A DNA stretch of 35,015 bases from an uncultured Methanosarcinales archaeon (lineage in GTDB: Archaea > Nanobdellota > Nanobdellia > Woesearchaeales > ARS49), in contig CAYJTR010000001.1 in NCBI GenBank assembly GCA_964373285.1, positions 1-35,015 on the forward strand, in the 5' to 3' direction. A program made the position numbers and the translations under genes. A model generated the notes under the pieces. That model made no database searches, was not told the DNA's origin, and saw only the letters and a program-made list of their open reading frames with translations. This document shows positions 4,655-35,015 of this stretch, in pieces (positions within the stretch are counted from its first letter, which is position 1; every line of letters begins with the position of its first letter).

Positions 4655-4696
4655 TGCGCTTTTATCCAATCTTTGGCGTCTTTTTGATTGTTGTTT

Positions 4697-4780
4697 GCAG
4701 GGATGCCGGAGTGGCCAAACGGGGCAGACTCAAGATCTGCTGGCTTAGTGCCTTCGCAGGTTCGAATCCTGCTCCCTGCA
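4697..4780 (+). tRNA. tRNA-Leu (anticodon CAA), class II with long variable arm, no encoded CCA
   Basis: Cloverleaf folded by hand. Acceptor GCAGGGA/TCCCTGC, D stem CCG/CGG, anticodon stem GCAGA/TCTGC with loop CTCAAGA. Variable arm GGC-TTAGT-GCC, T arm GCAGG-TTCGAAT-CCTGC, discriminator A. Confidence 0.9.
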
Positions 4781-4954
4781 TTTGTATTTTTGGGAGTGGG
4801 TTTGAGTTTTGAGTTGTGTTATACAGCAATTTAAGCCATTACCAATTAGAGTTATTACCCATCAAGGAATCTCTTATCAGGGGTTGAGCATTGCGAAATC
4901 CCTGGACGATTAAGGTTTTTGCATCAAACGGTTGCGAAGCAAGCGTTTGGTTTA

Positions 4955-9041: not shown

Positions 9042-10037
9042 TCACACGGTTTTGAACATTAGCCCTTTAAATTTCTTTTCTAATTGTTCTTCTAATCCTT
9101 TGTCCAGTGTTCCTGTTGTTGCGTATAGCACGGGCATCTTTCTTGATTGTCCTTCTACGTATGCAACGCTTAGGTCTGCATCGTTGATTTTCTTTTTTTC
9201 TTTTGCTTTGCAGTAAAATTTCATTGTTCCTATTGGTGTTTGTAATTGTATTGTTAAATCATATTCTTTGCCTTCTTTTATCGTGTTGCTTTCAATTATT
9301 TTTATGTTTTCTTTTGTGAAATACTTTTTTAGTGTTGCTGAGAATTGTGAGCTGTCCATTTGTTGATTTGTTTGAGGTTGCGCCTCCGTTTTTTTCTGCG
9401 TTTTTAACAATTCTTCTTGGGTTCCTGTTTGCGCTTTTTTTTCTTCAGTTATTTTTTGTTGTGTTTCCGGCATTTTTATTTTTGGTTTTCTTCCCGGCTT
9501 TTTCTTTGTTTGTACTGTTGTTTCCTGCTTTTTTTCTTTTATTGGCTCTTCTGAAATTTTTGTTGGTTGTTCTTCTATGTCCTTTTTTCCTTGGACTAAT
9601 TCTAATATTATTTTTTCTGCGGAAGAATCAGGTATCAAATACCATTTCCAGAATACTTCTTTAATATTGCCTATTGTCACATCCAATGGTATCGCATAAT
9701 CTTTCAATCCTTGGAATGCCACTCTTGCTACCGGCGATAGCGACCCGTCTCTTACTATTCTCGAATTTTTTAGGAATTGCAGTGCTTCTCTTTCTACTTG
9801 TTTTAGCGTGTGTATGTATTGTTCCAGCACTTCTGGTTTTGACGGGTCGTAGTATAATGGTGATGATCCTATTTTTATGTGTGATATTTTTACGAGTCCT
9901 CTTTCTGACATTTCTGACAGCATTGCTGAAGCTATCATAGAATCTATTTTTAGTTCTGTTGCCACTTGTGCCGGCAGTATTGCAATTTTTAATTTTAGTA
10001 GTGACAATATTTTGTCCCTGTACTCTATCGCCGCCAT
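9042..10037 (-). CDS. Hypothetical DNA-binding protein: N-terminal winged-helix repeats, K/E/Q/T-rich linker, compact C-terminal domain
   Basis: The N-terminus ILSLLK...LPAQVATELKIDSMIASAMLSEMSERGLVKISHIKIGSSPLYY looks like a winged helix. Residues of about 165-235 are low complexity. It is the first gene of an apparent operon with fen and trm5. Confidence 0.55.
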   Translation of the reverse strand: MAAIEYRDKILSLLKLKIAILPAQVATELKIDSMIASAMLSEMSERGLVKISHIKIGSSPLYYDPSKPEVLEQYIHTLKQVEREALQFLKNSRIVRDGSLSPVARVAFQGLKDYAIPLDVTIGNIKEVFWKWYLIPDSSAEKIILELVQGKKDIEEQPTKISEEPIKEKKQETTVQTKKKPGRKPKIKMPETQQKITEEKKAQTGTQEELLKTQKKTEAQPQTNQQMDSSQFSATLKKYFTKENIKIIESNTIKEGKEYDLTIQLQTPIGTMKFYCKAKEKKKINDADLSVAYVEGQSRKMPVLYATTGTLDKGLEEQLEKKFKGLMFKTV

Positions 10038-13863: not shown

Positions 13864-14781
13864 TCAGTCCGTTGGGAGTATTACTACATTTTTTTGTATG
13901 CTTGTTCTGTATCCGTATCTTACTTTTATTTTGAACTGGTCTGTGAATTCTGTTGTTTGTGTTGTTTCGTAAGTGCACCTCATTTGCCCTCTCCCTCCTA
14001 TTAATCTTAGTGTTTTGTCATTTCCCAGTCCCGTGCATTGTATTGTAGTGCCTCCAATACTAACGTCTTCTACTTGAACAACGTTTAGACTGTTGTATGA
14101 TGCTCTTTGAGTGTTGTAAGGGTTGCAGTACGCCAGCGATTCTCTTCTGTACACGTCTCCTCCTCCAGTGTTTGACACTGTTATCGTCAGTCTTGTTTTT
14201 CCTCTGGCTGGTTCTGTTTGTACTCCCGTTATTTTTACTGGCGCGCCTTGGGCTCCCAGCGTTACGCTTCCCGGGGTGCAGCTTTTCTTTCTAGTGCTTG
14301 TCGTGAACGGGTCCGGGTCTATGCATATTGTTCCTCCGGCTTCTGTTGAGTACTCGTAGCATGCTGTCGCTGTCAGCGGTATCTGGTACTCGTTTTGCGT
14401 TTCCAGGTCTGCTATTGTTCCCGTTATGCTTACTAAATCTTTGCCTCCGCTGTTGTATCTCGTTTGCGCGTCTAATTTTGGTATTTGTATGCCGTTGTAA
14501 AAATCTCCGCTTATTCTTTCTCTCGAGAATCCTGAAAAGTATATTCTGTCAGTGCTTGACCCTATTTCGTTCGCTCCCAAATTTTCTACTTCTACCGCTA
14601 TCTCGAATGGCTGGTCTTCGTATATCCTGTTTGGCGGCACGTTTGGTGTCCATTTTATGCTTAATCCGTTGCCTCCGATGCCTCCTCCCGCAGCTCCTTC
14701 GCCTCTGTCACCCGTCGTACAACCCGCCATTATCAGGGTTGCGAAAATCGCGATTATCACCAGTATATGCTTGTTTTTCAT
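13864..14781 (-). CDS. Exported lipoprotein-like protein with two CARDB/Ig-like beta-sandwich segments (paralog A)
   Basis: Signal peptide ending IMAGC (lipobox-like). VEVENLGANE and ITVSNTGGGDV resemble CARDB-type motifs. Conserved Cys positions are shared with 14786-15697. Confidence 0.7.
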   Translation of the reverse strand: MKNKHILVIIAIFATLIMAGCTTGDRGEGAAGGGIGGNGLSIKWTPNVPPNRIYEDQPFEIAVEVENLGANEIGSSTDRIYFSGFSRERISGDFYNGIQIPKLDAQTRYNSGGKDLVSITGTIADLETQNEYQIPLTATACYEYSTEAGGTICIDPDPFTTSTRKKSCTPGSVTLGAQGAPVKITGVQTEPARGKTRLTITVSNTGGGDVYRRESLAYCNPYNTQRASYNSLNVVQVEDVSIGGTTIQCTGLGNDKTLRLIGGRGQMRCTYETTQTTEFTDQFKIKVRYGYRTSIQKNVVILPTD

Positions 14782-14785
14782 TTTA

Positions 14786-15697
14786 TCACGTTTTTTTTAT
14801 CACGATTTTTTGCGTCGTGATATCGTAGTACCCGTATGCCAGGTTTATAATTATTTGGGCTGTGTGGGTTCCTTCACTTTTTGGTATTCCCTGCTCGTAC
14901 TTGCACGTTATTGTTGTCGTTCCTTCATCTATTTTTATGCTTGCCTCTCCCGCCGCTTTTTCTCTACCGCACGTCAGCATTCTTCCTTTGTGGTCTATGA
15001 ATGCTTCCATTAATATCCTGTTTTCTTGGGACTTCTCGCTTGTGCTCATGCACGCGTTTAGCACCGTGCTCGGCTCTAATATTATTCCTTTGCCTTTGTT
15101 TTGTATTTTTATAGTTATTATTGGTATTACCATTTCTCCGTCTGTCGGTGTTGTTGTTGTTTCAACACTTGTTATGGCTAGCGGTCCTCCTTGGCCTCCA
15201 AGGCTTACTGTTCTTTCTCTGCATTCTGGTTTTGCATCGTCGGGCATTTGTATGCATACTGTTGGGCTCGCTGTTGTTTTGTACTGGTAGCACGTGCTTG
15301 CTGATATTGTTGCTGGTATGTCTTTTTTCTCGCTTGTCAGCTCTCTGACTTTTACGTCGAATGTGTAAACTATTTGTTCTCCTATTGGCTGGTCTATGCT
15401 TCTTCCTTCCAGAAATAATTCTTTTTGTCGGTCTCTTTGTATTTCTATGAATTGTTCCGGAACGTTTAGCACCAGCACCCCGTGATTGACCGTGCCAGCT
15501 CCCCTGTTTTCTACATCCACATTTATAGTTCCTGCCGTGCCTTCATATAATACATTGTTGTTTCCCGCAGTTATTTTCGCGTATAACCCCTGAGTTCCTT
15601 TTTCTACTTGCGTATTTCTTGTTTGCAACCCGCATGATGCAGTCAATAATAGCAATAGTGCCATTATCAAAATTAGCGAGTTTTTGTTATTTTTCAT
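14786..15697 (-). CDS. Exported lipoprotein-like protein (paralog B of 13864-14781)
   Basis: Signal peptide ending LTASC. It aligns with paralog A at VDVENRGAGT, CYQYKTTASPTVCI, CRERTVSLGGQGGPLAITSVE, IKIQNKGKG and the C-terminal AYGYYDITTQKIVI. Confidence 0.7.
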   Translation of the reverse strand: MKNNKNSLILIMALLLLLTASCGLQTRNTQVEKGTQGLYAKITAGNNNVLYEGTAGTINVDVENRGAGTVNHGVLVLNVPEQFIEIQRDRQKELFLEGRSIDQPIGEQIVYTFDVKVRELTSEKKDIPATISASTCYQYKTTASPTVCIQMPDDAKPECRERTVSLGGQGGPLAITSVETTTTPTDGEMVIPIITIKIQNKGKGIILEPSTVLNACMSTSEKSQENRILMEAFIDHKGRMLTCGREKAAGEASIKIDEGTTTITCKYEQGIPKSEGTHTAQIIINLAYGYYDITTQKIVIKKT

Positions 15698-17580
15698 GGT
15701 CTAACTCCCGGCGCATTGCTCGTCGAGAATTCTAGTGATTGTACATTCCTTTTATTTTTCCTGTCAACTATTTCCATGAACACTGAATATTTCGTTCCCT
15801 GCTCTAGGCTTGAAATGTCTATTTTGTGGTTTCTTCCATAATTGCTTATTTTTGTGGTGCTTTTTGATTCTTCGTTGCCTTTCCAGTATTTTATTGTTAT
15901 TTTTGTGTCAACGTTTGTTTCTACTTCTATTCTTGCATTGTTTGTTGATGGCTGTATTGTTGGTCCGGATATTATTATCGGTATGTCAGGGCCTGTTGTG
16001 CTTCCTCCAGTGGTTGTTGTTTCCCCTTCAACTCTTACATTTTTTGATTCTTCTATCGTGTAGTCATATTTTGCCAGTGCGTAAAATGCTTTTTGTGTGA
16101 ACGCGCTTCCTCCAAGGAATCTTTCCCATGAATCTTTGTGCAGCGTGAACGCTGTTGATATTCTTGCGTTGGTTGTTATTTTCAGGTCTTCGGTGTTTAT
16201 CGAGTACACCGTTTCTACAGCGTTGTCGCAGGGCATTTCTGTATATGGGTATTCTTCTCTTAAATATTCACAGTTTGCCTTCACTATTTTTTCGCTGTAT
16301 GGCCTTATTGTTTCCAGCGCGAAACTTTTTGGCGTGACTATTATTATTCCTTTAACTTTTCCCTCGCCTTTTGCTATGCTTCTTGATATTATAACGTCTG
16401 GCGTGAATTTTATGCTTTCTTTTTTATCGTTTAGCACTACATATTTTTCTGGGAATCCTATATCAACTTTTAGCGGCGTTCTGGAGCTCGTCACTGTTGA
16501 TGGAATTATTGCTTTTGATAACTCTGCAGTTTTTGGTGTGAACTCTCCGTACTTGTTTAGACTGAATAATTCTTCTTTTCCCGTCGTGAATTCTAGTTTT
16601 GCTATTGCTTCCATTGAATAGTCTGCTTTTAGTGTTACCTTGTGGGTTCCCGGGTTTAGAGTGTTTTTTGATATTGTGCATGTTACTTCTTCTTTTTGTA
16701 TATTTTTTCCTATCGCTTCGTGCGTTTCCGGGGTTAGTGTTATTTTGTCGCTTGTCGCTCCCGGTGTAGAGCAGGATATTTTTACGTTTATTCCTTTGTC
16801 TTCCGAGAATGTTTTTGTTCTTAGCGTTCCTACTATTGACAGTTCGTCGGTTGTTTTGAATGGTGCTCCTCCAAGAGTTACTATTCCTTCGTCGCCCCAG
16901 TCTATTATTGCTTCAAATTCTGAAGGGTTTATTTTTCTTGATGCATCTTTTTGTGTTACGTTCCCTTTTATTTCTTGTTTTATGTTTTCCGCTCCTGTTG
17001 TTGCCACGCTTATTATTTGTCTTGCCGTGGCCACAATTGCTCTTGTTGATGCAACCATTGCGTCGCCGGCGTGAAATTCTGAGCCGAATGCTATTCCTCC
17101 TTCGGCTTTGCTTATTGCTGGCCACATTATAGTGGTTACCACTACTATAACCCATATGAACATGTATACTGCAGAAAACTTGTTCAGCCATTCGGGTTTT
17201 TCAATTTCATCCCTGGTTATTATGAAGAAGAACCATGCAGGCATTGCTAATAATATTGCTGTGTACGCGAATGTTCCCAGTGTGCTTTTTACCAGTTCTT
17301 CTATGAATGGTATTACCAGTACCAGTGGTACTATGTACGCCCATAACGCGAATATTCCCAGAGTTTCTAATCCTTCTTTGTTTCTAATGCTTTTCATTAA
17401 TAACCATCCCGTTCCCGGGAGTACTATGAAGTGTAGTATCATGAATATTGGATCAAAAATTTTTACTTCTCCCGTTAATCTTACAAGAATGTCCGCTACG
17501 TGAACTATTATTGCTATTAGTAAAAATAATACTATCCCTCCTCTTGATTTACCTGCGCTTGTTGTTGTGCTCAATTGCAA
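15694..17580 (-). CDS. Polytopic membrane protein with large extracellular beta-rich region and C-terminal FN3-like domain
   Basis: The N-terminal 170 aa or so contain 5-6 hydrophobic helices. The remainder is T/K/E/I-rich and beta-like. The C-terminus (ARIEVETNVDTKITIKYWKG...GTKYSVFMEIVD) looks FN3-like. Start is a TTG at 17580 or 17574. It overlaps the next gene by 4 nt. Confidence 0.7.
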   Translation of the reverse strand: MQLSTTTSAGKSRGGIVLFLLIAIIVHVADILVRLTGEVKIFDPIFMILHFIVLPGTGWLLMKSIRNKEGLETLGIFALWAYIVPLVLVIPFIEELVKSTLGTFAYTAILLAMPAWFFFIITRDEIEKPEWLNKFSAVYMFIWVIVVVTTIMWPAISKAEGGIAFGSEFHAGDAMVASTRAIVATARQIISVATTGAENIKQEIKGNVTQKDASRKINPSEFEAIIDWGDEGIVTLGGAPFKTTDELSIVGTLRTKTFSEDKGINVKISCSTPGATSDKITLTPETHEAIGKNIQKEEVTCTISKNTLNPGTHKVTLKADYSMEAIAKLEFTTGKEELFSLNKYGEFTPKTAELSKAIIPSTVTSSRTPLKVDIGFPEKYVVLNDKKESIKFTPDVIISRSIAKGEGKVKGIIIVTPKSFALETIRPYSEKIVKANCEYLREEYPYTEMPCDNAVETVYSINTEDLKITTNARISTAFTLHKDSWERFLGGSAFTQKAFYALAKYDYTIEESKNVRVEGETTTTGGSTTGPDIPIIISGPTIQPSTNNARIEVETNVDTKITIKYWKGNEESKSTTKISNYGRNHKIDISSLEQGTKYSVFMEIVDRKNKRNVQSLEFSTSNAPGVRP

Positions 17581-17647
17581 TCCTCTTTTTTGCCCTACCG
17601 CTCGTTTAAGAACATGCCTTTTTTAAAGCTTTGTCGAATTTAGCATC

Positions 17648-18772
17648 CTAACCAATTCTTATTCTTGCTTTGGGCACGTTGACCATTCCTTCAGGGGTTA
17701 TTTCCAGATAGTTCGTTCCTGTTGTCGTGCTGTTCGTCAGGTCTACTATTCCTATGAATTCCGACGTCCTTATGTAGAATGGTTTTGCGTTGAATACTCC
17801 GTTAAATATTTTTTCTCCTTGCTCCGGCAGTTCTAGCTCTAATTTTAGCGATCTTGGCCTTGTTTGAATGTTGAAGCTTGTTACGAACTTGTTTGCGTTT
17901 GTGGATGCCAGTTCTATTTTTATGTTGTTCATTCTCGTAATATTTTTGTTTTGTGCCGTGAATGTTATAGTGTTGGCTCCTCGTTTCAGCGAGCTTTTTG
18001 GTATCATATCTATTGTTTCTTCTTCGCACGCAATAGTCCCGTTTTTTATCGCATTCTTGTTCACAATTATTTCCATTATTGGTTCTTCATCGCACCTTGC
18101 GAAATATTTTAGCGTTGCTCCCGTCATGATTTCGTATTCTTCCTGAGTTATCGTGAATGTTGTTTTTTTTGTTAGTGGTGTTATGTCTGTTACTGTTCCT
18201 ATTAGCGATACGTCTTTTAGTGTGTATGCTGCGCTTTGCAGGAATCCGCTTTCTGTTGAGAATTTTAGCGAATTGCTCTTTTTTACGTATTGCGCAGGTA
18301 TTTTTATTGGTGCAGGGTTTGTCTCTTCTAAAACCCCGCTGAATAATACGTTATCATTAAGTATTATTGCCAGTGTTCCTTTTTTTTCTGTTGCAGTGAA
18401 GCTTAGGAATATGTTGTCCGTGTTTTTCGGGTCTTCCAGCATGAACGTTTTTGTATTATCGCTTCTTCTGAATATTCCGTTGCTTGCCGTAACGTCTGGG
18501 AATCTTGCTAACACTTTAGTGTTTTGCAGCGATTGCAGTGTGAATCCTTGGATTGTTTTGGTGTTGTCATCGTTTGTTCCTCCTTGGAGAATTCCTATCG
18601 TGTACTCTTTCATTACCCCTGCGGTTTGTGCGCTTCCTCTCATAGTGTTTTGGAATTTTTCCGGGGTTGTCACCATTGCGAACAGCAGGAATATTCCTAT
18701 GAGTACCAGTATAAGCATTGTTGCTCCTGTTGCTTGGGATTTTTTCCTCTTTTTGAACTGCATTCTGGTCAT
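17648..18772 (-). CDS. Signal-anchored exported protein, unknown family
   Basis: Basic N-terminus, then a TM helix (ATMLILVLIGIFLLFAMV), then a 330-aa beta-rich ectodomain. It is the first gene of the four-gene - strand operon. Confidence 0.7.
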   Translation of the reverse strand: MTRMQFKKRKKSQATGATMLILVLIGIFLLFAMVTTPEKFQNTMRGSAQTAGVMKEYTIGILQGGTNDDNTKTIQGFTLQSLQNTKVLARFPDVTASNGIFRRSDNTKTFMLEDPKNTDNIFLSFTATEKKGTLAIILNDNVLFSGVLEETNPAPIKIPAQYVKKSNSLKFSTESGFLQSAAYTLKDVSLIGTVTDITPLTKKTTFTITQEEYEIMTGATLKYFARCDEEPIMEIIVNKNAIKNGTIACEEETIDMIPKSSLKRGANTITFTAQNKNITRMNNIKIELASTNANKFVTSFNIQTRPRSLKLELELPEQGEKIFNGVFNAKPFYIRTSEFIGIVDLTNSTTTGTNYLEITPEGMVNVPKARIRIG

Positions 18773-18783
18773 TGTTGGTCAAA

Positions 18784-18804
18784 CATTATATAAATGTTTT
18801 TAAA
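18784..18804. promoter_or_regulatory. Divergent promoter region with two TATA elements inside a near-palindrome (aaacattatataaatgttt, ttttaaa)
   Basis: The spacer between the ATG at 18772 (-) and the ATG at 18826 (+) is 53 bp. The ttttaaa box (18798-18804) lies 22-32 nt from both start codons. Confidence 0.45.
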
Positions 18805-18825
18805 TGTTCTCTCGATTGCTCGCTT

Positions 18826-19923: not shown

Positions 19924-19935
19924 GACAATTGTCTT
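19922..19935. promoter_or_regulatory. Perfect 14-bp palindrome AAGACAATTGTCTT (operator site 2)
   Basis: Identical to site 1 and abuts/overlaps the TATA box. Confidence 0.55.
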
Positions 19936-19945
19936 ACAATAACAA

Positions 19946-19957
19946 AGACAGGTGTCT
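19946..19957. promoter_or_regulatory. Inverted repeat AGACA-GG-TGTCT (operator site 3)
   Basis: Same half-sites and spacing as sites 1 and 2. Lies 5 nt upstream of the ATG at 19962. Confidence 0.5.
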
Positions 19958-19961
19958 GCAT

Positions 19962-20369
19962 ATGAAACAGGAGAAAACAGAAGAAGGATTGCGGGAAGTG
20001 CTGGAAGAAATAGAAACTGCCCTAAGAGATCCTCGGGGACTTATCGCACACCAACGACGTCTCGCATTTTCAGTATCGCTCGGAGCATCGCTTCTGGTAG
20101 AACTCTACTTCCACAAAAAGGAAGTTCTCAAACCCGGAGGAAAAATTAATCATTTGTGGTTTCGGAAGCAAGAGAAAACAATTCTTGAAACATTGCAGCA
20201 TCAGATCACGTCGCCCATCAAATCATTGCCACAGATAGACATTATTATTGAACTCGCAAAAAAAATAGAAGAGAAAAGAGATGATTTGGCATATGGAACC
20301 CCTGCAGAAGAAAAAGTTCTCCAAGAGAAGATTAAGCTCTTTCTTCGATTAAAAGAGGTGACTGCATGA
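19962..20369 (+). CDS. Small helical protein, possible HEPN-like partner of the downstream nucleotidyltransferase
   Basis: 135 aa and K/E-rich. It contains RGLIAH (an Rx4H pattern), although unusually close to the N-terminus. It overlaps the next gene by 4 nt. Assignment is tentative. Confidence 0.45.
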   Translation: MKQEKTEEGLREVLEEIETALRDPRGLIAHQRRLAFSVSLGASLLVELYFHKKEVLKPGGKINHLWFRKQEKTILETLQHQITSPIKSLPQIDIIIELAKKIEEKRDDLAYGTPAEEKVLQEKIKLFLRLKEVTA

Positions 20370-20965
20370 TTCAAGGATATGCTTCTTATTTCAGCGCTTT
20401 TCTCATACAAAACACGAAAAATAGAGAACAGATACAGAGAATAATTTTGTATGGTTCGGTAGCAAAAGGTGAAGAAACAAGAGAAAGTGATGTTGATATA
20501 TTTATAGAACTAAAAAGGAAGAACAACATGGTTGAGAAAGAAATTCGTGAGGTAGAAAAAAAGTTTTATGACAGCAGAGAGGCAGTACTGTTTAAACTGA
20601 AAGGCATAGAAAACAAAATAAATATAAAAATTGGAGCACTTGCCCAGTGGAGAGAATTATACGGGAGCATAGCATCAACAGGCATTGTGCTGTACGGGCC
20701 ATATGAAGCAAAAGAACTCCCATCAGGCGTACAACATAACACGATAATATACTGGGACAAAATAGAAAAAAACAGGGGCGCATTTCTCAATATATTGTAC
20801 GGTTTCAGAGCAAAAAATAAAAAACATTTCGGGATATTGGAAAAAATTGGGGGGGCAAGGATGGGGAAAAGTTGTATTCTTATACCCACACAATACAAAA
20901 GTGAAATACTAAAACTCATACAAAACTATCGCGTCCACGCAAAAATAAAAGAAGTATATTCATAA
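20366..20965 (+). CDS. Nucleotidyltransferase-domain protein (MNT/pol-beta superfamily) with C-terminal extension of about 100 aa
   Basis: LYGSVAKGEETRESDVDIFI matches the GS-x9-11-DxD minimal nucleotidyltransferase signature. Confidence 0.75.
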   Translation: MIQGYASYFSAFLIQNTKNREQIQRIILYGSVAKGEETRESDVDIFIELKRKNNMVEKEIREVEKKFYDSREAVLFKLKGIENKINIKIGALAQWRELYGSIASTGIVLYGPYEAKELPSGVQHNTIIYWDKIEKNRGAFLNILYGFRAKNKKHFGILEKIGGARMGKSCILIPTQYKSEILKLIQNYRVHAKIKEVYS

Positions 20966-32119: not shown

Positions 32120-32677
32120 TCATTGTGATCGTATAATACATTCCTCTTTTTTTTCGGCGCTCACAATATTGTTGCAGAGCTTTGGCGCTAAATAAATCAT
32201 TGCCAGCCTTTTCCAAGCTTTTTCTGCGCATTGCTGTTCATACAACTCAGTATTTCCTGCAAGTATTTCGCATATTTCTTCCGTTGATGTCTCGGCGTCG
32301 GCACATTCCTCTGCTTTTTGTAGAACTTCTGCTCTGCATACATTGTTTGTTCCACACAGCTTTTCATCTTTTGTTATTTTTGCTCTGCACTCCATTGACT
32401 CTTTCTCATCTGCGTATTCATCACAGAATGATTCATTTTTTTGCAGCACTGCCCTGCATAGTTCTGGCTCATCACTTTTTTCGCAGAGCCGGAGATTTCC
32501 TGTTTGTACCGCCTGTATGTATGCAACTATTCCTTTTGTCTGAGAGAGACATTCTTGGTTCTTGCTTTGGAATTCTTCCTTTACACTGTCAGATTCTGTA
32601 CTCCAGAATATGAGAAGTCCCGTAATTCCCGCTACCAGCACGATAAGCACTCCTATTGTTTTGATAGTTCTGTCCAT
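32120..32677 (-). CDS. Membrane-anchored Cys-rich repeat protein
   Basis: The start is taken at MDRTIKTIGVLIVLVAGITGLLIFW (TM anchor). The ectodomain has 13 Cys with three repeats of the type CRA-x4-5-K-x2-4-C (ELCRAVLQKNESFC, MECRAKITKDEKLC, NVCRAEVLQKAEEC). Confidence 0.55.
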   Translation of the reverse strand: MDRTIKTIGVLIVLVAGITGLLIFWSTESDSVKEEFQSKNQECLSQTKGIVAYIQAVQTGNLRLCEKSDEPELCRAVLQKNESFCDEYADEKESMECRAKITKDEKLCGTNNVCRAEVLQKAEECADAETSTEEICEILAGNTELYEQQCAEKAWKRLAMIYLAPKLCNNIVSAEKKEECIIRSQ

Positions 32678-32730
32678 AATACATCTTCCTGCCATCCACC
32701 AATAACCCTTATTTTTAAACCTTTCGAGAG

Positions 32731-32745
32731 AAACATTTAAAAAGG
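32731..32745 (+). promoter_or_regulatory. BRE/TATA-like box aaacatttaaaaagg
   Basis: It lies upstream of the long ORF that starts at 32808. AAGGGG lies 7 nt before the ATG. A - strand box (tttaaaaata, 32712-32721) may serve the divergent gene. Confidence 0.35.
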
Positions 32746-32807
32746 AATTGCTCATAAAACACGGCATTCGCTCATCGAACATTCTTGAGCGCAAAAAGGG
32801 GTTTTGT

Positions 32808-35015
32808 ATGCGATTACTATCGTTAGGTTTGTTGATTTTCTTTTTATTGCTGTTTAGTTCCCAAAGCGGTGTAGTTCTTGCCTCTTCTCATGAACCTACA
32901 AAATTCGAATTGTATCTCGACTCTCTTAGGGTGTATGATGGAATTTCTGCTGGTCCTGATAATTGTGATGACGGAGAATCTTCAACCAGTAAGGAATTCT
33001 CCTTTCCCTTGCGAGAGGTTCTGCAAGTGTCCTTTGATGGTTTCACTTGGACAAAAAACACTGGTTGGGGGAAAGACTGCACGGCTAGGTATACTAGACT
33101 TTTTTTCACGTTGTATGGTAATCAAAATTTTGTGAATAATTATGTTCCCATTGTTGGTGATGGTAGAATTGATGGCGCAGTTGATATCGGGAAAGTTTTT
33201 TTTCCGCCTAATAACTTGTTTTTCAACAAGCTTAGAGTGGCAGTACACGTTGGTGATAGGCGTCAAGGAACGCTAAATTCTGTATCTATCAAGACGCGTA
33301 ATTCCGTCAAAAATTTCCATCCCACCACTTCAAAATCCGGGACTCTCCAAATCTCTGTCTCTGATGGAGCGCTATACCTCGGCACCGTCAAAGATTTGGA
33401 AGAAGGAGCTCGCTGGATTAACTCTTCTAATCCTAATGTGATGGTCTGGTTTTCTTCTAAAGCTCCTAAGGATTATCCTTCTGTTGACTGGTTTTACGGT
33501 TTTGAACCTTCAGATGTTAATATTACTGATAGGGGTTCTGATTTTAGGGCTGGCGGTAAGCTTGTTGATGATAAAGGTAATGTCTTGACCGATGATAATG
33601 TTTTCGTTTATGCCTGTCTTGATAGTGATTTGAACAGGGTTTGCGACTTTTTGGATGATAGAGATTTTTGGAAGAATTCCTGCGAGAATGCACAGCTCGC
33701 TCCGGGAAGTGACAATCCAAAGACCGGTTTTGTTTTTAATGATTCCGTGACTTTTGGTCTTGGTTGTTGTGGCGATGATGGAGTTATTGATTGTAACACT
33801 AATGTTGTTGCGACGAACGGCAAGAGGTTGTTTTGCGATAGAATTGTTCAACCTAATGGTGATAAAAAGTGGGAGTGGGTTGAATCTGTTAATGGCACCG
33901 TTTTTAATAGCTCTTGTTTTTTTGGCAATCAGATACTTCTTAATGGTTCTGATAGGTTGATGTGTGGCGTTCCTGACCCCAGCAAGGAGTTGAATTCAAG
34001 TTTTGATATTGCTGTTTTTGGTATGAAGTCTCAGAGTGTTTCTACCGGTCCCGTTAACTTCCAAATTTCTTTTTCTGGACCTTCCACTGAAACTAAAACT
34101 TATACTTTTTCTCCTCCTAAACCTTGTACTTCTTTGATTCTTAATGTTAAGAATACTGGATCTGCGCAGGTCTCTCCATTGTTTAATACTGTTTCTGTTG
34201 GTTTTGTTGGTGGTTCTTCTGGTTCTCAAACTTTGCACGCGGTTATGCGTCCCTCTACTGCTGGTGATCCTTCTTCTGCTGAATATTTTGTTGATTCTTC
34301 GGGTATTCCTGTTGGCAGTTTTATAAATTCTGTTTCTTTAACTCTTGACTCTAGTGCTTCTTGGACTGGTGTTGAGTGTTTTAACAATAGGGCTGTTCCT
34401 GTGAGGAGGGAGGTTAAATCTGTATCTTTGGAGCCCGGAAAAGTTCATAATGATTTATTACCAATTTCTTCCATCACTATTCCCGGCGCGGAGAGTTATG
34501 TTTTGTTTCCTTTGTCGAAGAATGTTTTGTTGTCAACAAATCCTATAACTAAAAATCTTGATGGCAGTGTTGATTATGTTCCCGGCAATATTGTTTCTTC
34601 CTCGCAAATTTCTGGTGGCAAGACCGTGCCTGTTTATCTTTATGTTCCTTCATCTGCAGAAGCTAAAGCAATTAAGGATAAGGAGCTTTCCAGAATCACT
34701 CCTTTTTCTCTAAAAATTACTGTTCCGGAATTAGGTGATGTGCTACTTGCTGAGTATTCTGGATCTGCAAGGGCTATTGATGGTGTTCTTTCTAAAGATA
34801 TCAATACACAGATAGGGCACAGGATTACTTATTCTTTAACCTCTCCATTGCTCACTGCTTCTCAAGATTCTTCTTCAAAAATTTCTAAACTCGAGTTTGA
34901 GGGTAAAGGCACTTCATTTCAGCATTCTTCTGGGGGTAGCATTCCTCCGATTGTTGCAGAACTTTCTGATATTACTGGACCTTTGAATGGTATTCCTTTG
35001 ACTGTTACTGGTTCT
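32808..35015 (+). CDS. Large secreted protein, 5' partial (736 codons, open to the window edge)
   Basis: Translated by hand with no in-frame stop from the ATG at 32808 to 35015. The signal peptide is MRLLSLGLLIFFLLLFSSQSGVVLASS. There is a Cys-rich central region (GLGCCGDDGVIDCNTN...), many N-x-S/T sequons and an S/T/V-rich beta-like remainder. It is absent from the ORF track, presumably because it has no stop. Confidence 0.75.
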   Translation, partial: MRLLSLGLLIFFLLLFSSQSGVVLASSHEPTKFELYLDSLRVYDGISAGPDNCDDGESSTSKEFSFPLREVLQVSFDGFTWTKNTGWGKDCTARYTRLFFTLYGNQNFVNNYVPIVGDGRIDGAVDIGKVFFPPNNLFFNKLRVAVHVGDRRQGTLNSVSIKTRNSVKNFHPTTSKSGTLQISVSDGALYLGTVKDLEEGARWINSSNPNVMVWFSSKAPKDYPSVDWFYGFEPSDVNITDRGSDFRAGGKLVDDKGNVLTDDNVFVYACLDSDLNRVCDFLDDRDFWKNSCENAQLAPGSDNPKTGFVFNDSVTFGLGCCGDDGVIDCNTNVVATNGKRLFCDRIVQPNGDKKWEWVESVNGTVFNSSCFFGNQILLNGSDRLMCGVPDPSKELNSSFDIAVFGMKSQSVSTGPVNFQISFSGPSTETKTYTFSPPKPCTSLILNVKNTGSAQVSPLFNTVSVGFVGGSSGSQTLHAVMRPSTAGDPSSAEYFVDSSGIPVGSFINSVSLTLDSSASWTGVECFNNRAVPVRREVKSVSLEPGKVHNDLLPISSITIPGAESYVLFPLSKNVLLSTNPITKNLDGSVDYVPGNIVSSSQISGGKTVPVYLYVPSSAEAKAIKDKELSRITPFSLKITVPELGDVLLAEYSGSARAIDGVLSKDINTQIGHRITYSLTSPLLTASQDSSSKISKLEFEGKGTSFQHSSGGSIPPIVAELSDITGPLNGIPLTVTGS

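What the first reader, a model, noticed from the sequence alone, without database searches (positions are those of the whole stretch)
13864..18772. Four-gene operon encoding only exported or membrane proteins of unrecognised families
Four co-oriented genes are tightly packed (67-nt gap, 4-nt overlap, 4-nt gap). The first (374 aa) is a signal-anchored protein. The second (628 aa) has 5-6 N-terminal TM helices, a beta-rich ectodomain of more than 400 aa and an FN3-like C-terminus. The last two are paralogous lipobox-type proteins of about 300 aa with CARDB/Ig-like segments. I recognise no enzyme, ATPase or transporter signature. The codon pattern is the native - strand one, so this looks like resident core envelope machinery rather than recent cargo. 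In a small-genome, probably host-associated archaeon, a polytopic membrane platform with three secreted Ig-like partners could be an S-layer anchoring complex, a fibre or adhesin assembly system, or a cell-cell contact complex. All functional interpretation here is inference.
Basis: inference. Interest (0 to 1): 0.7.

Follow-up and report, generated by a model that had tools for sequence, protein, structure and literature searches.

The report
Conserved DPANN archaeal surface-protein gene cassette
This is a four-gene operon for membrane-anchored, beta-sandwich surface proteins of no described family, kept in the same order in dozens of Woesearchaeota-type archaea. In some relatives its central protein carries bacterial cell-wall-cutting enzymes at its outer end, which makes it a good candidate for the unknown device these tiny archaea use to contact other cells.

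Summary
Four co-oriented minus-strand genes (P1 17648-18772, P2 15694-17580, P3 14786-15697, P4 13864-14781) have the stated 67/-4/+4 nt spacing and evolve under purifying selection.

P1 is N-terminally anchored, by a signal that looks like a class III (prepilin/archaellin) signal. P2 has 5 TM helices, two Ig-like domains and an FN3 domain. P3 and P4 are lipobox paralogues, each with two beta-sandwich domains.

No Pfam, NCBIfam, PHROG, PDB or Foldseek search places any of them in a characterised family. Matches are only generic Ig/FN3/CARDB folds.

The order pelota | P1-P2-P3-P4(-P5) is conserved in about 35 species-level Woesearchaeota/Nanoarchaeia genomes. Most of these have a third lipoprotein paralogue.

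In 9 of 33 relatives the FN3 position of P2 holds a peptidoglycan hydrolase (SLT, Amidase_2, NlpC/P60 or glucosaminidase). Archaea have no murein.

Best reading, which is inferred: a vertically inherited surface complex for contact with partner or host cells, with an exchangeable distal module on P2. A structural envelope or S-layer role is not excluded. The cassette appears undescribed and has moderate to high interest.

The parts
18773..18825 (.). 53-nt divergent intergenic region between P1 and pelota (real pelota start about 18826). On the minus strand it has A/T-rich TATA-like boxes (TTTAAAAA 18797-18804, TTTATATA 18787-18794) 15-32 nt upstream of the P1 ATG.
   Evidence: Sequence read. 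The pelota gene model comes from L001 (341 aa). The promoter role is inferred from the archaeal TATA consensus (own knowledge).
17648..18772 (-). P1, 374 aa (probably 371 from Met4). The N-terminus is basic and is followed by one hydrophobic helix. The ectodomain has tandem small beta-rich repeats, two invariant Cys (227, 249) and recurring G-x-N-x-[IL]-x-[FI] motifs.
   Evidence: The internal repeat 113-190 vs 211-286 has hhalign probability 96%. There is no Pfam, NCBIfam or PDB hit. dN/dS is 0.077.
18668..18772 (-). P1 residues 1-35: class III (prepilin/archaellin)-like signal or anchor. The window reads KKRKKS-QATGAT-MLILVLIGIFLLFAMV. In the family it reads [KR][GA][QAD], then small residues, then a hydrophobic helix, then LPPxxR.
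   Evidence: 27 of 31 family members have [KR][GA][QAD] before the helix. The window and L032 have K-S-Q. Cleavage was not tested.
15694..17580 (-). P2, 628 aa (626 from the second TTG, preceded by AGAGGA). It is a polytopic membrane protein with a C-terminal ectodomain.
   Evidence: AF2 model mean pLDDT 81.3. The family has only 62 representatives at E<1e-3 among 1.84 billion proteins.
17110..17541 (-). P2 membrane domain, residues 14-157, with five TM helices. The N-terminus is inside by the positive-inside rule, which puts the C-terminal domains outside.
   Evidence: Hydropathy. AF2 helices at 14-35, 44-61, 68-89, 103-121 and 130-157.
17479..17502 (-). Conserved polar stripe H27-x-x-D30-x-x-x-R34 at the outer end of P2 TM1. 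D30 and R34 are invariant and H27 is in most members.
   Evidence: Alignment A1: 23 sequences at 16-20% identity to the query apart from the three closest members (84, 39, 31%). Function unknown.
16021..16935 (-). P2 residues 216-520: two Ig-like beta-sandwich domains with four family-conserved Cys (270, 301, 437, 451).
   Evidence: AF2 pLDDT is about 90 here. Foldseek matches are only generic tandem Ig/FN3 arrays, such as integrin alpha legs and contactins, with TM no higher than 0.14.
15697..16020 (-). P2 residues 521-628: a short linker plus a distal FN3-like domain. This is the variable position of the family. In relatives it is absent, FN3, PKD, SLT, Amidase_2, NlpC/P60 or glucosaminidase.
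   Evidence: for FN3. for the alternative modules.
14786..15697 (-). P3, 303 aa: the first lipobox paralogue. Its signal peptide ends ...LLLTAS-C22 (coordinates 15632-15697).
   Evidence: Orthologues lie immediately after P2 in every locus that has downstream DNA.
13864..14781 (-). P4, 305 aa: the second lipobox paralogue and the best-conserved protein of the cassette. The signal peptide ends ...LIMAG-C21 (14719-14781). A Gly-rich linker covers residues 21-34. Two beta-sandwich domains follow (40-154, CARDB-like, 14320-14664; and 182-302, 13876-14238).
   Evidence: AF2 pLDDT 87.7, pTM 0.79. CARDB 25.3 bits. Foldseek matches are generic tandem beta-sandwiches: integrin legs, transglutaminase C-terminal domains, RbmA, WxLIP and MSCRAMMs. 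Orthologues score up to 233 bits.

Best explanation
Shown:
- The four genes are a vertically inherited envelope cassette specific to Woesearchaeota/Nanoarchaeia-type DPANN archaea. It is written pelota | P1-P2-P3-P4(-P5).
- Every product is anchored in the membrane and places arrays of small disulfide-containing beta-sandwich domains outside the cell.
- P1 is anchored by an N-terminal helix, P2 by a 5-helix domain, and P3/P4 by an N-terminal lipobox cysteine.

Inferred:
- The products form one surface complex whose job is physical contact with another cell.
- P2 is the membrane-embedded stalk. Its TM domain is followed by a long helix, two Ig-like domains and a distal module.
- The distal module is exchanged between lineages. 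Murein hydrolases would cut into bacterial walls. FN3 or PKD domains, including the FN3 here, would only bind.
- P1 and the lipoproteins would form the conserved collar or scaffold around the stalk at the membrane surface.
- In this window's organism the complex would therefore be adhesive rather than lytic.
For: Co-inheritance as a unit:
- P1 lies directly upstream of P2 in every GTDB locus with upstream DNA except one.
- The lipobox paralogues lie directly downstream of P2 wherever downstream DNA exists. 22 loci have three of them.
- Genes are tightly packed or overlapping, here and in relatives.

Core gene status:
- Pelota is adjacent in 30 of 33 loci, and housekeeping genes flank the cassette.
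- dN/dS is 0.08-0.18.
- No viral-contig relatives were found.

Extracytoplasmic location:
- Signal, anchor and lipobox features are conserved. All 83 paralogues have a Cys after the hydrophobic region.
- Conserved Cys pairs are present.
- Both AF2 models show beta-sandwich ectodomains.

Contact function:
- 9 of 33 P2 family members carry SLT (5), Amidase_2 (2), NlpC/P60 (1) or glucosaminidase (1) domains. In every member where the position was located (L018, L020, L022, L017, L039, L040/P0051), the domain lies C-terminal to the Ig domains, where the window has FN3.
- L039 shows the whole cassette with a P2-SLT fusion at the same pelota locus in an archaeal contig.
- L018 (E-S, GLMQ and AYNGG), L020 and P0016 (E-S followed about 15 residues later by G[LV]MQ) keep the lytic-transglycosylase motifs.

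Literature:
- Large extracellular SLT proteins have already been proposed to bind or degrade bacterial walls in Woesearchaeota and Pacearchaeota (PMC8204110, PMC9723730).
- AliA-type lipoprotein lipidation machinery is reported in DPANN (PMC12462473).
Against: - No direct evidence shows that the four proteins interact. No multimer prediction could be run.
- The window's own P2 has no hydrolase, and about three quarters of the family lack one. Hydrolysis is therefore an accessory feature, not the core function.
- All folds are generic Ig-like domains, which also build S-layers, pili and enzyme stalks.
- The strict conservation of polar residues in P2 TM1 suggests that the membrane domain does more than anchor. 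This model does not explain it.
- Whether Woesearchaeota attach to hosts at all is disputed for some lineages (PMC11606122 background).
Confidence: 0.42

Rival explanations
1. The cassette is a structural envelope component. The lipoproteins, with P1, would form the S-layer or a sub-S-layer scaffold, or anchor it. P2 would be the membrane anchor. Hydrolase tips in some lineages would be add-ons for feeding.
For: - The cassette is present across the lineage, sits in a housekeeping neighbourhood and is under strong purifying selection.
- Ig-like domain arrays and lipid anchoring are typical of archaeal S-layer proteins (own knowledge).
- Two or three paralogues could build a pseudo-symmetric lattice.
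Against: - No S-layer family signature was found in Pfam or NCBIfam.
- Woesearchaeota metatranscriptomes already list separately annotated S-layer protein genes among their top transcripts (PMC11606122).
- A lattice protein does not explain the module swapping at the tip of P2, or the conserved polar residues in P2 TM1.
Confidence: 0.24
2. The cassette makes a fibre or pilus. P1 would be a type IV pilin-like subunit cleaved by the prepilin peptidase and polymerised. P2 would be the assembly platform, and P3/P4 would be accessory or tip proteins.
For: - The P1 family N-terminus, [KR][GA]Q then small residues then a hydrophobic helix, resembles archaellin and pilin class III signals.
- Woesearchaeota express archaellins, so a prepilin peptidase should exist (PMC11606122).
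Against: - No PilB/FlaI-type ATPase or PilC/FlaJ-type platform gene lies in any of about 36 loci within 5-10 kb.
- The window has Ser, not Gly or Ala, at the predicted -1 position.
- A conserved Pro-Pro follows the helix directly.
- P2 has no similarity to known platform proteins.
Confidence: 0.1
3. The cassette is an uptake conduit, for example for host lipids, analogous to Mce/Mla systems. P2's membrane domain would be the permease. The N-anchored and lipoprotein paralogues would form the extracytoplasmic tunnel. The energising ATPase would be encoded elsewhere.
For: - The gene logic resembles mycobacterial mce operons: a 5-TM permease plus several anchored paralogues including a lipoprotein, with the ATPase unlinked (own knowledge).
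- DPANN lack lipid synthesis (PMC11606122 background).
- Invariant D30 and R34 in P2 TM1 suggest an active membrane domain.
Against: - No MlaD/MCE or MlaE signature was found in Pfam.
- The modelled ectodomains are closed Ig-like sandwiches, not tunnel-forming barrels.
- No ATPase was found.
Confidence: 0.08
4. The genes encode independent surface proteins that are merely co-located, with no common machine. They would be an ordinary lineage-specific 'hypothetical' surface-protein cluster.
For: - All domains are generic.
- No interaction data exist.
- The number of paralogues varies from 1 to 3.
Against: - The order P1-P2-paralogues is kept over divergence down to 15-25% identity in about 30 species, with overlapping or near-overlapping genes.
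- Such conservation is unusual for functionally unrelated genes.
Confidence: 0.1

Closest known systems
[quoted passage not shown] 2021, PMC8204110; GH23 proteins in Vigneron et al. 2022, PMC9723730)
   Same: - Same organisms.
- Extracellular SLT domain on a large surface protein.
- Proposed role in binding or degrading bacterial walls.
- Some P2 family members (L018, L020, L039, P0016) are SLT proteins of 820-1330 aa.
   Different: - The window's P2 has FN3 instead of SLT.
- Those papers do not describe the 5-TM base, the P1/lipoprotein partners or the conserved cassette.
- Whether fam00969 equals the P2 family was not testable here.
Cell-wall-hydrolase components of bacterial trans-envelope machines (T4SS VirB1/VirB6; Gram-positive conjugation PrgK/TcpG; phage tail lysins)
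   Same: - A polytopic or anchored membrane protein presents a murein hydrolase to a cell wall.
- Pilin-like and lipoprotein partners are present in the same operon.
   Different: - No VirB4, VirD4 or VirB11 ATPase gene and no TrbL/VirB6 signature.
- The cassette is chromosomal core, not mobile.
- The producer is an archaeon without murein.
Integrin-like / MSCRAMM-type adhesins built of tandem Ig-like domains
   Same: The best Foldseek matches of both models are tandem beta-sandwich 'legs' and adhesin domains: integrin alpha calf/thigh, RbmA, SdrD, ClfB and WxLIP.
   Different: - TM-scores are only 0.1-0.25.
- No sequence similarity.
- No ligand-binding head such as a beta-propeller or a DLL latch was identified.
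Archaeal lipoproteins lipidated by AliA/AliB (Hong et al. 2025, PMC12462473)
   Same: - P3 and P4 have Sec-type signal peptides ending in a lipobox-like A-[SG]-C.
- AliA is reported in DPANN.
   Different: - Position -3 is T or M instead of L, V or I.
- Lipidation is untested.
- The mature domains belong to no family studied there.
Archaeal class III signal-peptide proteins (archaellins, type IV pilins, bindosome proteins)
   Same: The P1 family N-terminus has a basic residue plus G/A, then Q, then a small-residue run and a hydrophobic helix.
   Different: - No assembly ATPase or platform gene is linked.
- The window has Ser at -1.
- The mature part, about 340 aa of tandem repeats, is unlike known pilins.

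Membership tests
CARDB (PF07705) | Score above the Pfam gathering cut-off on the N-terminal beta-sandwich | tested here: met
   - P4 scores 25.3 bits against a cut-off of 22.7, at residues 47-111.
- Only 4 of 65 paralogues match at E<0.01.
- P3 does not match.
- This is a fold label, not a function.
Fibronectin type III domain (P2 C-terminus) | Pfam FN3-type model above cut-off, or a 7-strand beta-sandwich fold | tested here: inconclusive
   - The window scores 19.5 bits against a cut-off of 21 for PF09294.
- Family members hit fn3 and Pur_ac_phosph_N.
- The family profile hits PDB FN3 domains at E=1.7e-4.
- AF2 models a beta-sandwich at 536-619.
- The fold is very likely FN3, but the sequence threshold is not met.
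Prokaryotic membrane lipoprotein (lipobox) | Basic n-region, hydrophobic h-region, then [LVI][ASTVI][GAS]-C | tested here: met
   - P3 reads ...LLLTAS-C22 and P4 reads ...LIMAG-C21.
- Positions -1 and -2 are canonical. Position -3 is T or M, which the looser PROSITE-type rule allows (own knowledge).
- A Cys follows the h-region in all 83 paralogues examined.
Prokaryotic membrane lipoprotein (lipobox) | Thioether-linked lipid on the Cys and signal peptide cleavage | not testable with these tools
   Needs mass spectrometry or Triton X-114 partitioning.
Type IV pilin-like / class III signal peptide protein (P1) | [KR]-[GA] cleavage motif directly before a hydrophobic helix of about 20 aa | tested here: inconclusive
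   - 27 of 31 family members have [KR][GA][QAD].
- The window and L032 have K-S-Q.
- 5-10 small residues lie between the motif and the helix core, as in archaellins.
- No FlaFind or PilFind was available.
Type IV filament system | Linked PilB/FlaI ATPase and PilC/FlaJ platform | tested here: not met
   None is present in the window or in about 36 related loci.
Archaeal S-layer protein families | Match to a known S-layer domain model | tested here: not met
   No such Pfam or NCBIfam hit for any of the four proteins or their family members.
Archaeal S-layer protein families | Forms a 2-D lattice and is among the most abundant proteins | not testable with these tools
   Needs proteomics or cryo-ET.
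Type IV secretion (VirB6/TrbL, VirB1, VirB4) | TrbL/VirB6 signature and a VirB4-type ATPase in the cluster | tested here: not met
   - No Pfam hit in the P2 TM domain in the 23 representative and 33 locus-derived family members scanned.
- No ATPase is present in the loci.
Mce/Mla lipid transport | MlaD/MCE domain proteins and an MlaE permease signature | tested here: not met
   No such Pfam hits.
Murein hydrolase-bearing surface proteins of Woesearchaeota | SLT/GH23 or another peptidoglycan hydrolase domain | tested here: not met
   - The window's P2 has none.
- 9 of 33 homologues do.

The most novel reading that the evidence does not exclude
The cassette encodes a previously undescribed DPANN machine, present across the Woesearchaeota lineage, for docking onto and locally breaching a partner cell's envelope.
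- The base would be a hetero-oligomer of P1, the 5-TM domain of P2 and two or three lipoproteins.
- P2 would carry an exchangeable 'warhead': murein hydrolases for bacterial partners, and FN3 or PKD binders otherwise.
- The conserved polar membrane domain of P2 would actively handle lipids or other cargo.
- If so, the tip module type would be a genomic predictor of whether an uncultured DPANN lineage targets bacteria or archaea.
Probability: 0.22. Interest if true: 0.85.

Novelty: new variant of a known kind. Interest (0 to 1): 0.62.

Why it matters
How Woesearchaeota and related DPANN archaea attach to other cells, and which cells they attach to, is an open question. Almost none of them are cultured.

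A conserved, single-locus, five-component surface cassette gives a concrete candidate to test by metaproteomics, cryo-ET and heterologous expression. The central protein swaps its distal module between binding domains and four different classes of peptidoglycan hydrolase. That swap also gives a possible sequence-based read-out of host type.

The cassette adds four sizeable protein families to the uncharacterised DPANN core. It also links the previously noted 'large SLT proteins' to a defined gene context.

Tried and rejected
Searches that gave nothing or only generic hits:
- Sequence searches of all four proteins against Pfam, NCBIfam, PHROGs and PDB gave nothing beyond weak CARDB, FN3 and CBM-like hits.
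- Family-profile searches against PDB gave only FN3.
- Member-by-member Pfam scans of the P1 and paralogue families gave nothing useful.
- Foldseek of the P2 model against PDB and BFVD, and of the P4 model against PDB, gave only generic tandem Ig/FN3 arrays with TM 0.1-0.25. I did not count these as homology.

- The search for homologous proteins returned only self and one 84% relative, both with P2 alone and with the 23-sequence alignment A1. The second search was wasted.
P1 therefore has no model and no interaction was tested.

Hypotheses tested and rejected:
- Viral or mobile origin. No relatives were found in IMG/VR with the two P2 motifs, and the flanks are housekeeping genes.
- P1 related to the lipoproteins or to the P2 ectodomain. 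hhalign probability was below 3%.
- P2 domain 2 related to the C-terminal domain of P3. This gave only 19% probability and remains inconclusive.
- Invariant Asn residues of P1 as N-glycosylation sites. None is in a sequon.
- P2 TM domain as a dedicated lipoprotein-processing enzyme. It is attractive because P2 always precedes lipobox genes, but there is no similarity or second catalytic residue to support it. I kept it only as a remark.


Full report
**Observation**

They are P1 17648-18772 (374 aa), P2 15694-17580 (628 aa, TTG start), P3 14786-15697 (303 aa) and P4 13864-14781 (305 aa). The spacing is a 67-nt gap, a 4-nt overlap and a 4-nt gap.

A 53-nt divergent intergenic region separates P1 from pelota. 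It carries A/T-rich TATA-like boxes 15-32 nt upstream of the P1 ATG. P2 is preceded by AGAGGA.

The genes are real and constrained. Against the 82-92% identical orthologues in a Candidatus Woesearchaeota MAG (L001, GCA_016203445.1), dN/dS is 0.077, 0.162, 0.176 and 0.104. Pelota gives 0.127 and ScpB 0.268.

The rest of the window is archaeal housekeeping: RNase Z, Hjc, ScpB, pelota, TrmB, PheRS, topoisomerase VI, PCNA, FEN1, RNase J, RIO kinase and TFE.

**Anatomy of the four proteins**

*P1.* It has a basic N-terminus and one hydrophobic helix.
- Across 31 family members the N-terminus reads [KR][GA][QAD], then 5-10 small residues, then a hydrophobic helix, then LPPxxR. 27 of 31 members fit this. 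The window and one other member have K-S-Q.
- From my own knowledge of archaellin and pilin precursors, this looks like a class III signal. Cleavage is untested.
- The mature part contains at least two homologous beta-rich repeats (113-190 vs 211-286, hhalign probability 96%). A weaker third repeat follows.
- It also has two invariant Cys and several invariant Asn. None of the Asn lies in a glycosylation sequon.

*P2.* It was modelled with a 23-sequence alignment (mean pLDDT 81, ectodomain about 90).
- It has five TM helices (14-157), then a low-confidence long helix (171-204).
- Two Ig-like sandwiches follow (about 225-518), then an FN3-like sandwich (536-619).
- Invariant or near-invariant positions are H27, D30 and R34 at the outer end of TM1, P85, P114, and four ectodomain Cys.

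*P3 and P4.* They are paralogues (hhalign probability 100%).
- Both have signal peptides ending A-S-C22 and A-G-C21.
- Both have six further conserved Cys.
- The P4 model (pLDDT 87.7, pTM 0.79) shows a signal helix, a disordered Gly-rich tether and two beta-sandwich domains.

**Searches against known families**

- Pfam, NCBIfam, PHROGs and PDB sequence searches give nothing significant. The exceptions are a marginal CARDB hit in P4 (25.3 bits vs 22.7) and sub-threshold FN3 and CBM-like hits.
- Family profiles against PDB give only FN3 for the P2 tail.
- Foldseek of both models returns generic tandem Ig/FN3 arrays with TM-scores of 0.1-0.25. These include integrin alpha legs, contactins, transglutaminase C-terminal domains, RbmA, MSCRAMMs and phage FN3 proteins.

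**Distribution and gene order**

An exhaustive HMMER scan of 1.84 billion cluster representatives finds only 62 P2 relatives at E<1e-3.

A motif scan of one genome per GTDB species returned 35 loci. All come from Woesearchaeota/Nanoarchaeia-type MAGs. Records labelled 'Methanosarcinales' or 'Binatia' carry pelota and the cassette and are evidently mislabelled.

Family HMMs run on all ORFs of these loci give a consistent picture:
- P1 lies directly upstream of P2 in every locus with upstream DNA except one.
- Lipobox paralogues lie directly downstream of P2 wherever downstream DNA exists.
- 22 loci have three paralogues (P3, P4, P5; pairwise hhalign probabilities 99.8-100%).
- The window clade (window, L001, L043) has two.
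- Every one of 83 paralogues has a Cys right after the hydrophobic signal region.

Pelota is the divergent upstream neighbour in 30 of 33 loci. Downstream is usually the RFC small subunit plus a PRC-barrel gene, but ScpB here. No relatives were found in viral contigs.

The cassette is therefore ancient, vertically inherited core genome.

**The functional clue**

The C-terminal module of P2 is variable. Of 33 family members:
- 5 carry an SLT lytic transglycosylase;
- 2 carry Amidase_2;
- 1 carries NlpC/P60;
- 1 carries a glucosaminidase domain;
- others carry FN3-like or PKD domains, or nothing recognised.

In the members where the position was read out, the hydrolases sit after the Ig-like domains. 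That is the extracellular, membrane-distal position where the window has FN3.

L039 is a 405-kb archaeal contig with pelota, an intein-containing RFC and H+-PPase. It shows the complete cassette with a P2-SLT fusion at the same locus.

The canonical lytic-transglycosylase motifs are retained in several of these proteins. L018 keeps E-S, GLMQ and AYNGG. L020 and P0016 keep E-S followed about 15 residues later by G[LV]MQ.

Archaea have no murein, so these modules must act on bacterial walls. Earlier genome surveys had noticed large extracellular SLT proteins in Woesearchaeota and Pacearchaeota. They proposed attachment to, or attack on, bacteria (PMC8204110, PMC9723730). They did not describe the membrane base, the partner genes or the conserved cassette.

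**Interpretation**

This much is shown. The cassette is a conserved set of four or five membrane-anchored, extracytoplasmic, disulfide-stabilised beta-sandwich proteins. They are inherited as a unit, and the polytopic member has a lineage-variable distal module.

My preferred model is inferred (confidence about 0.4). The proteins would form one surface complex for contact with partner cells.
- P2 would be the stalk that presents either a binding module (FN3 here) or a wall-cutting enzyme.
- P1 and the lipoproteins would form the conserved base.

The main rival is a structural envelope or S-layer-associated role (about 0.24). It fits the universality and the Ig-like building blocks. It does not explain the tip swapping. 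It is also weakened because Woesearchaeota already have separately annotated, highly expressed S-layer genes (PMC11606122).

Three weaker rivals remain:
- A pilus-type fibre built from P1 is weakened because no ATPase or platform gene is present in any locus.
- An Mce-like uptake conduit lacks any family signature.
- Mere co-location is unlikely, because order is kept down to 15-25% identity.

No model explains the invariant D30 and R34 stripe in P2 TM1. It hints that the membrane domain is more than an anchor.

**Limits**

- P1 has no structural model.
- No multimer prediction could be run.
- The TM domain of P2 could not be searched separately.
- Lipidation, signal cleavage, expression and localisation are all untested.
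- Literature searches were limited to the held library and found no description of this cassette.

**Verdict**

The finding is a real, apparently undescribed envelope cassette restricted to this lineage and made of ordinary domain types. The variable murein-hydrolase tip makes it a concrete candidate for the host-contact apparatus of Woesearchaeota-type DPANN archaea. Interest is 0.62.

Noticed in passing
window 32748-35015 (+), runs off the window end: An ORF of at least 756 aa with a clear Sec signal peptide (MRLLSLGLLIFFLLLFSSQSGVVLASS). It is Cys-rich and has no Pfam hit. It is another large secreted protein of unknown family.
   Followed up: partly
window 32120-32794 (-): A 224-aa protein with one TM helix and a Cys-rich repeat region (C-x-n-C spacing). 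It has no Pfam hit.
   Followed up: no
window 9042-10037 (-): A 331-aa protein without a Pfam hit. It has the same size and position in L001, between the tRNA-splicing endonuclease and FEN1. It has a Lys/Glu-rich middle and possibly an N-terminal winged helix.
   Followed up: no
window 19929-20965 (+); L001 15649-16999: An overlapping gene pair (146 aa, then a 199-aa Polbeta/NTP_transf_2 nucleotidyltransferase) sits between pelota and trmB in the window but not in L001. L001 instead has a 199-aa + AbiEii pair between the MJ0538-like gene and hjc. These are small, variable, toxin-antitoxin-like or defence-like islets on either side of the cassette.
   Followed up: partly
L006, L007, L008, L011, L012 and others: Public records titled 'Candidatus Binatia bacterium' or 'uncultured Methanosarcinales archaeon' carry pelota plus the DPANN cassette. 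The taxonomic labels of these MAG records look wrong, or the contigs are misbinned.
   Followed up: partly
L039 10001-13345; P0016, P0028, P0032, P0051: Some P2 relatives have cytoplasmic N-terminal extensions of 100-210 aa. These contain basic, Ala/Gly/Lys-rich tandem repeats such as AWSKTKSGAKAV. The window's P2 lacks them. Their function is unknown.
   Followed up: no
window 4696-4781 (+): tRNA-Leu(CAA) is the only RNA gene found in the window by Rfam and ARAGORN.
   Followed up: yes
window 14001-15000: The P4/P3 region has the highest GC of the window (0.457 against a mean of about 0.40). Minus-strand genes show strongly negative AT skew on the plus strand, meaning an A-rich coding strand.
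   Followed up: no
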